DNA of 48,480 nucleotides, from assembly GCA_018693855.1 (NCBI GenBank), contig JABHMO010000029.1, forward strand, positions 1 to 48,480, given 5' to 3'. Shown here piece after piece: positions 837-1,373 of this stretch. The notes below the pieces were generated by a model. It saw only the letters and a list, made by a program, of their open reading frames with translations, was not told where the DNA came from and ran no database searches. Each line of letters opens with the position of its first letter. Position 1 is the first letter of the stretch. The stretch is from Candidatus Falkowbacteria bacterium. GTDB taxonomy: Bacteria; Patescibacteriota; Patescibacteriia; UBA11705; JABHMO01. The translations under genes were made by a program, and so were the position numbers.

Positions 837-873
837 AAAAAGAAAAGAGGAGGTCCTGGTTAGGATTCTCCTC
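837..873 (-). terminator. intrinsic terminator of the minus-strand RNA
   Basis: Minus strand reads GAGGAG-AATCCT-AACC-AGGA-CCTCCTC followed by TTTTCTTTTT. The U-tract is only on the minus side. Confidence 0.8.
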
Positions 874-1036
874 AATTCGTAACTTCCCGTGGCCGGCTGG
901 AGGGTGTTCCGTCCGAAAAAGCTGCATTGTGGGCGGTATTTCAACAACGGCTCCATCAGAATCGCAATTGCAAAACCCTGATCTCAAAGCCTCCCGCCTA
1001 TCCTATACACAAGCAATCTCCACGGATCATTGCTAC
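838..1036 (-). ncRNA. stand-alone RNA containing a 23S rRNA L1-stalk (H76-H78) module
   Basis: Minus strand of 931-1010 reads GTGTATAGGATAGGCGGGAGGCTTTGAG...TGGAGCCGTTGTTGAAATACCGCCC, matching the conserved 23S segment GTGTAGGATAGGTGGGAGGCTTTGAAG...TGGAGCCGACCTTGAAATACCACCC (recalled E. coli sequence). Closing stems GUAGC/GUUAC and UCCGUGG/CCACGGG; own promoter and terminator. Confidence 0.8.
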
Positions 1037-1042
1037 AAAAGT

Positions 1043-1071
1043 ATTCTAATATATTAAAATAGATCAGTCAA
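1043..1071 (-). promoter_or_regulatory. sigma70 promoter of the L1-stalk RNA
   Basis: TTGACT(1071-1066)-N17-TAGAAT(1048-1043). The predicted +1 at G1036 coincides with the first base of the closing stem. Confidence 0.8.
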
Positions 1072-1116: not shown

Positions 1117-1262
1117 ATTACTCGTGGGGATTGGCTCCTACATGAAGAGTGATTAATTAAGGTGTCCCGCACTTGCGGGAAAACTAGATGGAACCGCGGG
1201 CCTCAATGTCTCGTTCTAGTGATCTAAATTAAATTTTTGGATTATTAGAATGAGGCTTTTTT
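1117..1262 (+). promoter_or_regulatory. glycine T-box riboswitch (transcriptional) with miniature Stem I
   Basis: T-box AACTAGA-TGGAACC-GCGGG (1182-1200) pairs with CTCGT-TCTAG as the antiterminator. The competing terminator is 1208-1256 plus T6. Stem III is TCCCGC-ACTT-GCGGGA (1165-1180). The 5' hairpin 1117-1153 has a GGC Gly codon in its loop. The element lies upstream of glycyl-tRNA synthetase. Confidence 0.85.
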
Positions 1263-1373
1263 GTTTATATTAATAATATAATAGATTAAAATTAAATCAT
1301 GGTGTGCTAGATTTCTTGCTGATTCGCAATATCCGCAACATCTGCAAATAATCTGCATATCCGTAATATAAAT

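What the first reader, a model, noticed from the sequence alone, without database searches (positions are those of the whole stretch)
838..1071. Free-standing ribosomal L1-stalk RNA gene
Seen: a ~200-nt minus-strand unit with a TTGACT-N17-TAGAAT promoter, a terminator and a closing stem that starts exactly at the predicted +1. Its core reproduces the 23S rRNA H76-H78 sequence, including both T-loop strands (UAGGAUAG and UUGAAAUA). Relative to the E. coli sequence as I recall it, GGUGG/CCACC is replaced by the compensatory GGCGG/CCGCC. H78 has a different, longer but still paired sequence (AUCAGGGUU...GAUUCUGAU) and H76 is a short UGCUUGUG/CACAAUGCA stem. The flanks are not rRNA-like and add an extra hairpin (GGA-ACACCC-UCC). 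Established: the L1 stalk binds uL1 and grips the tRNA elbow through interdigitated T-loops, and some Parcubacteria have lost uL1. Inference: this is a selected small RNA rather than decaying rDNA. It could be a uL1 decoy or regulator, a tRNA-elbow binder, or a trans-encoded stalk for a 23S lacking it. I know of no described RNA family like this.
Basis: partly seen in the sequence, partly recalled or inferred. Interest (0 to 1): 0.92.

Follow-up and report, generated by a model that had tools for sequence, protein, structure and literature searches.

The report
Stand-alone ribosomal L1-stalk RNA gene
A tiny marine bacterium carries a separate small RNA gene that copies the ribosome's L1 stalk, the part that binds protein uL1 and grips tRNA, and similar stand-alone copies turn up in large phage genomes, often among their tRNA genes.

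Summary
On the minus strand, 1071..838 is a promoter / ~158-nt folded body / terminator unit. Its apex (1012..927) matches bacterial 23S H76-H78 (Rfam local hit, E 2.7e-11), with both T-loops, H77, the GA junction and a long H78.

It is not an assembly chimera: a contig from another study spans csaA, the element and the T-box. It is not a copy of the organism's own 23S, whose stalk is present on another contig and is the least similar of 22 stalks compared.

A sister population (GlyRS 96% identical) keeps the promoter (92%) and terminator (95%). Its interior is diverged, yet 9 of 35 helix pairs changed on both sides and none broke. A third relative lacks the unit.

No other stand-alone copy was found in 150 relatives or among the checked matches (32 of about 102) from 400 genomes of the phylum. 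A motif scan of viral contigs found about 11 sequence types of stand-alone L1 stalks, three of them inside phage tRNA arrays. Five whole phage records hold no other 23S sequence and no uL1 gene.

Best reading: a selected, off-ribosome L1-stalk RNA that binds uL1 and/or tRNA elbows, probably acquired horizontally. Expression and binding are untested. The "stalk in trans for a stalk-less 23S" idea is refuted.

The parts
1043..1071 (-). sigma-70-type promoter TTGACT-17-TAGAAT; predicted +1 at 1036
   Evidence: 10 of 12 matches. The same promoter (TTGACT-17-TAGTAT) is conserved in L059 (73 of 79 nt over 1037-1116).
879..1036 (-). folded body of the sRNA. P1 is 1036-1032/883-879. P2 is 1026-1020/892-886. 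The L1-stalk arm is 1019-920. The extra hairpin is 916-893.
   Evidence: MFE fold. Helix-by-helix comparison with L059: 23 pairs the same, 3 one-sided changes, 9 double changes, 0 broken.
927..1012 (-). 23S H76(apex)-H77-H78 look-alike. T-loop 1 AGGAUA is 1004-999. H77 is 998-994/936-932. The GA junction is 993-992. H78 is 991-949. T-loop 2 UGAAA is 943-939.
   Evidence: Rfam LSU_rRNA_bacteria local alignment, model positions 2132-2209, 40.2 bits, E 2.7e-11. Motif definitions come from passages of PMC3664808.
893..916 (-). extra hairpin (UCGG..GGA-ACACCC-UCC..CCGG) in the position that H79 holds in 23S
   Evidence: L059 has a different 7-bp hairpin at the same place. Loop SNP C>A in L058.
838..878 (-). 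intrinsic terminator: GAGGAG..CUCCUC hairpin plus U-run
   Evidence: Fold. 39 of 41 nt identical in L059. Its 17-mer occurs only in window copies, L058 and L059 among 149 loci.

Best explanation
This is a real, independently transcribed small RNA of about 160 nt (about 195 nt with its terminator). Its apex is a complete ribosomal L1-stalk module. [quoted passage not shown] It sits on a short H76 and is closed by a three-way junction.

It belongs to an apparently undescribed class of stand-alone L1-stalk RNAs. The class also occurs in large uncultivated phage genomes, often inside their tRNA arrays.

Proposed mechanism (inferred, not shown): off the ribosome, the RNA is bound by the cell's uL1 and presents its T-loop platform to tRNA elbows. 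It would therefore act on the free uL1 and/or tRNA pool, not as part of the ribosome.

The bacterium most likely acquired it horizontally (a phage-like source is plausible) into the csaA-glyQS spacer. It has evolved fast there under selection for its fold.
For: Gene-like unit and L1-stalk identity.

Not a chimera: a 706-nt contig from another study covers 484-1189 with 2 differences.

Selection:
- In L059 (GlyRS 96% aa identity; glyQS 91% and csaA 82% nt identity) the promoter region is 92% and the terminator 95% identical. The T-box-to-glyQS spacer is unalignable.
- Across 35 homologous helix positions there are 9 double and 3 single compensatory changes and 0 broken pairs.
- L059's unit folds at z = -3.86, and 0 of 200 shuffles fold as well.

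Not derived from its own rDNA: the own 23S stalk ranks last of 22 stalks compared (36 of 76 flank positions). A phage element, L157, ranks first (55 of 76). Model R1 scores L157/L162/L164 at 53 bits full length. The best 23S among 150 relatives scores 46.7 bits.

The class:
- Viral scans gave 19 + 3 loci. Only L171 is a kilobase-scale 23S. L161 and L159 are pieces cut by contig ends, and L153 is ambiguous.
- In 5 whole viral records of 105-263 kb (two at least 95% complete), the only LSU likeness is one 80-91-nt piece, model positions ~2125-2216.
- None of the 5 encodes uL1. One has a terminase domain.
- L156, L158/L168 and L160/L163 lie within arrays of 8-11 tRNA genes on the same strand.
- Pair counts on the 19-hit alignment: 90.2% paired against 64.5% in shuffles (0 of 500), and 42-47% when slid.

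tRNA-elbow role: the T-loop-1 core residues AG, which lay outside the search pattern, are kept in 9 of 11 viral types. uL1 mRNA operators lack T-loops, according to passages of PMC3616713. This points to the elbow platform, not only the uL1 site.

uL1 recognition in this organism: it has rplA, preceded by a canonical operator-like hairpin with a GA bulge. Its uL1 therefore plausibly recognises the motif the sRNA carries.
Against: - No expression data. No listed run is RNA.
- Distribution in cells is very narrow: one species plus one diverged sister. It is absent from the next relative, L060/L061.
- The sister allele has no detectable LSU likeness. Its T-loop core residues are not evidently kept (junction strands, judged). 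The L1-stalk identity itself is therefore not conserved across the two alleles.
- A population SNP (U26C) breaks one H76 pair.
- The viral examples were found with a pattern that fixes the H77 and T-loop-2 letters, so conservation of those letters cannot be inferred from them.
- 8 of the 11 viral types were not seen in tRNA arrays. No cultured phage example was found.
- The similarity ranking that favours a phage source has small margins (55 against 52 of 76).
Confidence: 0.55

Rival explanations
1. A pure uL1 sponge or regulator. The sRNA offers an rRNA-grade uL1 site that competes with the rplA operator and the 23S, tuning uL1 (L11 operon) synthesis. It has no role for tRNA.
For: The H77 helix, the GA junction and the H78 base GGCUU/GAGCC are the parts shared by both alleles. 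The T-loops are not shared. An operator-like GA-bulged hairpin precedes rplA. Passages of PMC2175363 say that a 55-nt rRNA fragment suffices for L1 binding and that rRNA sites bind more tightly than mRNA sites. The own 23S stalk carries AA instead of GA at the junction, so a canonical site elsewhere could matter.
Against: The window allele and 9 of 11 viral types keep T-loop residues that uL1 operators do not need. The phage copies sit with tRNA genes, and those phages encode no uL1. In L059 the H77 pair next to the junction is flipped from G-C to C-G, which may hurt uL1 binding.
Confidence: 0.2
2. A non-functional passenger: a horizontally acquired or rDNA-derived fragment that happens to lie between a promoter-like and a terminator-like site and is drifting.
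For: It occurs in only two close lineages. The interior diverged strongly between them (only 66 of 158 nt are alignable, at 74%). The sister lost the L1-stalk sequence. A SNP breaks a pair.
Against: The promoter and terminator are conserved above the coding-sequence level while neutral spacer is unalignable. There are 9 double compensatory changes and none broken. All conserved 23S positions are intact in the window allele.
Confidence: 0.1
3. A trans-acting elbow platform for the neighbouring glyQS T-box. That T-box's Stem I is a 36-nt hairpin without the distal double T-loop platform, so the sRNA would supply the tRNA-elbow contact.
For: The T-box (Rfam 36.9 bits, E 1.4e-6) starts at about 1117, after a 12-of-12 promoter. 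It has only a short Stem I with GGC at or near the loop. It is transcribed divergently from the sRNA, about 80 nt away. It is the only T-box found in the genome. Passages of PMC3664808 state that the Stem I apex and the L1 stalk share the same module.
Against: L060/L061 have the same short-Stem-I T-box but no sRNA. No complementarity or tether between the two RNAs is evident. L059's allele lacks canonical T-loops.
Confidence: 0.05
4. A ribosomal part supplied in trans: the sRNA replaces or complements the L1 stalk of this organism's ribosome.
For: The own 23S stalk is reduced (H78 about 8 bp) and has AA for the conserved GA. The sRNA reproduces the H75/H76/H79 junction topology.
Against: The own 23S keeps H76, H77 and both T-loops. 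Both strands of the sRNA's closing helices lie within the sRNA, so no base pairing to 23S is available. Relatives with equally short H78 have no such sRNA.
Confidence: 0.03
5. Assembly chimera that placed a 23S fragment into an intergenic region.
For: The MAG has 48 contigs, and its 23S is broken at a contig end.
Against: An independent contig spans both junctions. L058 and L059 carry the unit in the same place. The core differs strongly from the own 23S. The LSU-like part is only 86 nt and is embedded in a compensated fold.
Confidence: 0.01

Closest known systems
23S rRNA L1 stalk (helices 76-78, bound by uL1)
   Same: T-loop 1 AGGA(U)A, T-loop 2 UGAAA, a 5-bp H77, the GA junction and the H78 base all match the bacterial consensus. 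The three-way-junction topology also matches.
   Different: It is its own transcription unit, 158 nt, with a short H76 and non-rRNA flanks. It lies far from the 23S gene, which sits on another contig and has its own, different stalk.
uL1 autoregulatory mRNA operator (leader of rplK or rplA)
   Same: It mimics the H77/H78 junction with a GA bulge. Such a site is present upstream of rplA in this genome (passages of PMC3616713).
   Different: Operators are short cis elements in the mRNA and lack T-loops. This element ends in a terminator, is followed by no gene on its strand, and carries the whole double T-loop module.
Double T-loop tRNA-elbow platforms of T-box Stem I and RNase P (J11/12-J12/13)
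   Same: The same AG..A / UG..A core and a purine-purine platform (passages; sequence).
   Different: Those modules are parts of larger RNAs that also hold the tRNA elsewhere (anticodon, acceptor end). Here the module stands alone.
Protein-titrating small RNAs (CsrB/RsmZ, 6S RNA) (recalled, not from a call)
   Same: The working principle: a stand-alone RNA that imitates the natural nucleic-acid target of a protein.
   Different: Different protein and different fold. No repeated binding sites. Titration is not shown here.
Stand-alone L1-stalk elements in viral contigs found here (L154-L170, L204-L206); unnamed
   Same: An L1-stalk core on a short H76, closed by its own stems. L157/L160/L167 also have multi-way junctions like the window's. 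No other 23S sequence nearby.
   Different: Many are embedded in tRNA arrays with no promoter-terminator pair of their own. Some are directly followed by a small ORF. No sequence likeness outside the core.

Membership tests
23S rRNA L1 stalk module (H76-H78) | T-loop 1 with core A-G..A (AGGA+U+A) immediately 5' of H77 | tested here: met
   AGGAUA at 1004-999, aligned to the consensus AGgAUA. Definition from passages of PMC3664808.
23S rRNA L1 stalk module (H76-H78) | T-loop 2 with core U-G..A (UGAAA) in the H78-to-H77 strand | tested here: met
   UGAAA at 943-939.
23S rRNA L1 stalk module (H76-H78) | 5-bp H77, GA junction, H78 stacked on it | tested here: met
   GGCGG/CCGCC, GA, and an H78 of 6+9+2 pairs.
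23S rRNA L1 stalk module (H76-H78) | Embedded in domain V of a 23S rRNA gene | tested here: not met
   The flanks are csaA and a T-box leader. LSU likeness is limited to 86 nt. The own 23S is on contig C45.
uL1-interacting mRNA leader | Stem with an internal bulge holding a potential G-A pair plus an unpaired A | tested here: met
   GA at 993-992 opposite ..AUA before CCGCC. Definition from passages of PMC3616713.
uL1-interacting mRNA leader | Lies in the leader of rplK or rplA and controls it in cis | tested here: not met
   rplK-rplA are on contig C10 with their own candidate operator. The element is followed by a terminator and a convergent gene.
uL1-interacting mRNA leader | Binds uL1 | not testable with these tools
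   Needs filter binding or EMSA.
Bacterial sRNA gene (own promoter, intrinsic terminator, stable fold) | Promoter and terminator in the right places and conserved | tested here: met
Bacterial sRNA gene (own promoter, intrinsic terminator, stable fold) | Transcript observed | not testable with these tools
   No RNA holder is listed.
Any Rfam 15 family | Reaches the family's gathering score | tested here: not met
   0 matches in the window. The best is a local LSU hit of 40.2 bits, below the gathering score of 50.
Fragmented rRNA gene piece | The main rRNA lacks the segment, and the piece can pair with it | tested here: not met
   The own 23S has the segment. The closing helices are internal to the sRNA.

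The most novel reading that the evidence does not exclude
Stand-alone L1 stalks are a new class of trans-acting RNAs that bind the tRNA elbow, probably as RNPs with host uL1. Large phages carry them within their tRNA arrays to act on the host tRNA pool. One ultra-small bacterium has captured one. There it may make up for a degenerate ribosomal stalk site (short H78, GA to AA), or serve the neighbouring glyQS T-box, which lacks its own elbow platform.
Probability: 0.2. Interest if true: 0.95.

Novelty: new variant of a known kind. Interest (0 to 1): 0.82.

Why it matters
The L1 stalk is known only as part of the ribosome, and its uL1 site only as a cis-acting mimic in mRNA leaders. A separately transcribed L1 stalk that recurs in phage tRNA arrays would be a new type of non-coding RNA built from a well-understood module. 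Its activities (uL1 binding, tRNA-elbow stacking) can therefore be tested directly in vitro. It also raises the possibility that phages manipulate tRNAs or uL1 with an rRNA look-alike. Finally, short local LSU hits in phage and MAG annotation are normally discarded as noise, and some of them may be real genes.

Tried and rejected
- BLAST of the unit against 60 relatives: no real hit. One 21-nt match at E 0.008.
- blastn-short against 8 23S loci of relatives: only chance words of 14 nt or fewer.
- Model R1 over 150 relatives (stricter filters): 15 genomes hit. 7 of 7 checked by Rfam lie inside 23S. Five more (L050, L051, L052, L054, L056) align over hundreds of nt to the own 23S. L053, L055 and L057 were not separately verified. 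0 of 15 same-family genomes hit.
- R1 over 29 glyQS loci of relatives: none.
- Genome-contig scan with an H78-specific 18-base pattern: 10 loci, about the number expected by chance (my estimate is ~17). Only L139 matched R1, and its flanks look like an ordinary 23S; this was not verified by Rfam.
- The same pattern in viral contigs: 2 loci, no R1 match.
- The terminator 17-mer in viral contigs: 2 loci, no R1 match.
- INPHARED phages by blastn with three viral units and the window unit: only host-23S contaminant records, or nothing.
- Plasmids: 479 records match a 23S stalk query. The 2 I opened are complete 23S genes, and I dropped this line.
- Genes next to the viral elements: no Pfam or PHROG family and no likeness to each other.
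- No RNA holder is listed among 7 runs, so expression could not be examined.
- Contigs of X1, X5 and X6 did not cover the element. This is a coverage blank, not evidence.
- The genome search with RF02541 on the own genome returned 0, although the 3' kilobase of the 23S is at the end of contig C45.
The alignments in the supplements of PMC3616713 and PMC3664808 might already contain stand-alone L1 sites, and I could not see them.
- Complex prediction, structure prediction, the protein homology searches and a second RNA model were not used.

Full report
**What is there**

Between csaA (484-822, +; Pfam tRNA_bind) and the leader of glyQS (1374-2723, +) lies a compact minus-strand unit.
- A TTGACT-17-TAGAAT promoter sits at 1071..1043.
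- A folded body runs 1036..879. Its first helix begins 7 nt after the -10 hexamer.
- A GAGGAG/CUCCUC hairpin with a U-run sits at 878..838.

The body consists of P1 and P2, a long arm, and a second small hairpin, joined at a three-way junction.

No Rfam family reaches its gathering score in the window. When 879-1036 is searched alone, the bacterial LSU model aligns locally to 927-1012(-) at model positions 2132-2209 (40.2 bits, E 2.7e-11). Every strongly conserved consensus letter of T-loop 1, H77, the GA junction, the H78 base and T-loop 2 is matched.

By the definition in Lehmann et al. (PMC3664808, passages), both T-loop cores (AG..A and UG..A) and a purine-purine platform are present. This includes GGCGG/CCGCC in place of the GGUGG/CCACC seen in all 17 23S stalks of relatives, and an unusually long H78.

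**Artefact or rDNA relic?**

- A 706-nt contig assembled from a run of a different study covers 484-1189 with two differences. It bridges csaA, the element and the T-box.
- The genome holds one copy.
- The genome search reported no 23S. However, BLAST shows that the 3' kilobase of the organism's 23S sits at the end of contig C45, upstream of the 5S gene.
- That 23S has its own L1 stalk: a 17-bp H76, T-loops AGUAUA and UGAGA, H77 GGUGG/CCACC, an H78 cut down to about 8 bp, and AA where all other stalks have GA.
- Of 22 stalks compared with the element, the own 23S is the least similar (36 of 76 flank positions). The 23S of the same family and order come next to last.

The element is therefore neither a misassembled piece nor a recent duplicate of the resident rDNA. 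The idea of a stalk supplied in trans to a stalk-less 23S fails. uL1 is encoded.

**Relatives in cells**

- BLAST (60 genomes) and a covariance model built from the element (R1; 150 genomes) found only genuine 23S stalks. Neither found anything in the 15 genomes of the same family.
- 29 glyQS loci of relatives carry nothing similar.
- A motif scan of 400 genomes of the phylum matched 91, essentially once each. The 32 matches I checked all lie inside kilobase-long 23S. Only the window's is free-standing.
- A metagenome scan with the GlyRS N-terminus returned 80 loci. csaA precedes glyQS in only four of the 109 loci examined.
  - L058 (GlyRS 100%) has the element with two SNPs.
  - L059 (96%) has a homologous unit.
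  - L060/L061 (90%) have csaA abutting the T-box promoter with no element: a 276-nt gap against 555 and 596.

**Evidence for selection**

Nucleotide identity between the window and L059:

| Region | Identity |
|---|---|
| glyQS | 91% |
| csaA | 82% |
| Spacer between T-box terminator and glyQS | unalignable |
| Element's promoter region | 92% |
| Element's terminator | 95% |
| Element's interior | 66 of 158 nt alignable, at 74% |

Despite the diverged interior, the fold is kept. Over 35 homologous positions in seven helices, 23 pairs are unchanged, 3 changed on one side, 9 changed on both sides (six of them in P2, two in H77), and none is broken. I set the registers by hand; P2 appears in both minimum-energy folds. 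L059's unit folds at z = -3.86.

Against a strict L1-stalk function:
- L059's unit gives no LSU hit at E up to 10.
- Its junction strands do not show the AG..A / UG..A cores.
- It does keep the H77 helix, the GA dinucleotide and the H78 base.
- A population SNP (U26C) opens one H76 pair.

**Stand-alone L1 stalks in phages**

A scan of the viral contig collection for the core motif (fixed H77 and T-loop-2 letters, H78 of 25-55 nt) gave 19 loci. A version with a short H78 gave 3 more.
- Only L171 is a real 23S. L161 and L159 are 23S pieces at contig ends. L153 is ambiguous.
- The rest fall into about 11 sequence types with no 23S sequence around them. They have their own closing stems, several with multi-way junctions like the window's.
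- In L156 (a 263-kb record), L158/L168 and L160/L163, the element lies among 8-11 tRNA genes on the same strand.
- Five whole records (105-263 kb; two at least 95% complete by CheckV) contain a single 80-91-nt LSU-like piece, model positions ~2125-2216, and nothing else of the 23S.
- None of the five encodes uL1. One has a terminase domain. Neighbouring genes hit phage families.
- On the R1-fitted alignment of the 19 hits, 90.2% of cells pair. Shuffles give 64.5% (0 of 500 reach the observed value) and slid partners give 42-47%. This alignment is fitted to the model and includes three or four real 23S rows.
- The first three letters of T-loop 1 were not part of the pattern. They are AGG or AGC in 9 of 11 types.
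- The window's core is most like the L157/L162/L164 type (55 of 76; R1 53 bits, against 46.7 bits for the best 23S among 150 relatives). The margin over other stalks is small.
- No cultured phage in GenBank showed such an element by BLAST.

**How it most likely works**

Shown:
- A gene-like unit under selection for expression signals and fold.
- A complete L1-stalk module in the window allele.
- The same module standing alone in phages, repeatedly beside tRNA genes.

Established elsewhere:
- A 55-nt H77/H78 fragment binds L1. rRNA sites bind more tightly than mRNA operators (PMC2175363, passages).
- The operator is a GA-bulged stem without T-loops (PMC3616713, passages).
- The double T-loop platform stacks on the tRNA elbow (PMC3664808, passages).

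Inferred:
- The sRNA binds this organism's uL1. This uL1 also appears to have a canonical operator before rplA (L002:1303-1347).
- The sRNA presents the platform to tRNA elbows off the ribosome.
- I rank a combined uL1/tRNA-binding RNP first, because T-loops are kept where uL1 alone would not need them and because of the tRNA context in phages.
- A pure uL1 sponge ranks second, because the uL1 site is what the two bacterial alleles share.
- The physiological purpose is unknown.
- Two local oddities could be connected but are untested: the own 23S stalk has AA for GA and a short H78, and the adjacent glyQS T-box has a 36-nt Stem I with no elbow platform. The same T-box exists without the sRNA in L060.

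**Comparison and novelty**

In structure the element is an L1 stalk. It fails membership in 23S rRNA because it is not embedded in a 23S, and in uL1 leaders because it is not in cis and sits at the wrong locus.

I found no Rfam family. Four full-text searches found no paper describing a stand-alone or phage-borne L1-stalk RNA. I read only listings and, for PMC13157829, passages. That paper reports phage uL1 protein, not an RNA.

I file it as a new variant of a known kind: rRNA mimicry, here as a free-standing gene. The phage distribution makes it potentially a new RNA class.

**Limits**
- No expression or binding data.
- R1 rests on one sequence, and its E-values are rough.
- The viral set is biased by the pattern used. 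Only 5 viral records were searched whole.
- Only 32 of about 102 phylum matches were checked.
- The direction of transfer and the gain-or-loss polarity within the clade are not resolved.

Noticed in passing
window 1117-1265 (+), promoter 1083-1110: The glyQS T-box leader scores 36.9 bits in Rfam, far below the gathering score of 93. Its Stem I is only a 36-nt hairpin with the glycine codon GGC at or near the apical loop, and it has no distal T-loop platform. It is the only T-box found in the genome. L060 has the same short form. L059 has about 55 extra nt between Stem I and Stem III. It resembles the 'ultrashort Stem I' T-boxes of Actinobacteria (recalled, not checked).
   Followed up: partly
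G000 contig C45, L151:2440-2545 (-): The organism's own 23S L1 stalk has H78 reduced to about 8 bp. It reads GGUGG-AA-G where the other 17 23S stalks examined read GGUGG-GA-G. This junction matters for uL1 binding. It could be a real change or an assembly error.
   Followed up: partly
L004-L008 (23S of relatives G019, G010, G017, G020, G007): H78 of the 23S is shortened to a 4-9-bp hairpin in families f1, f2 and f3 of this order. It is full length in f4 (L009) and in most of the class.
   Followed up: partly
L002:1303-1347 (+), between rplK and rplA on G000 contig C10: A candidate uL1 operator: AUUGUGG-GA-[9-bp hairpin]-GCCUGAA-CCACGAU, z = -3.7, directly upstream of rplA.
   Followed up: partly
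G000 contig C45 end (L151:1738-2753): the genome search with RF02541 returned no match in the own genome. Yet about 1 kb of 23S (90.6% identical to a same-family 23S) lies here next to the 5S gene. The 16S is on another contig (C30) with no 23S within 1.5 kb.
   Followed up: yes
L162:1850-2148 (+) (same in L157, L164): In this phage type, a hairpin right after the L1-stalk arm pairs CCUCU with a GGAGG Shine-Dalgarno sequence. That sequence lies 7 nt before the AUG of an 88-aa Cys-rich ORF. This copy may therefore be a cis-acting leader and not a free RNA. L167, L154 and L204 also have a small unrelated ORF just downstream.
   Followed up: partly
window 1290-1373; L059:2930-3000; L060:2950-3000: The stretch between the T-box terminator and the glyQS start codon holds short, imperfect tandem-like repeats. 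They differ in each of the three relatives (for example GTGAGTG-type repeats in L060).
   Followed up: no
G009:C9:1200-4581; L048:1892-2167: 23S genes of relatives carry large insertions: 3.4 kb spans 863 model positions in G009, and L048 holds a group I intron.
   Followed up: no
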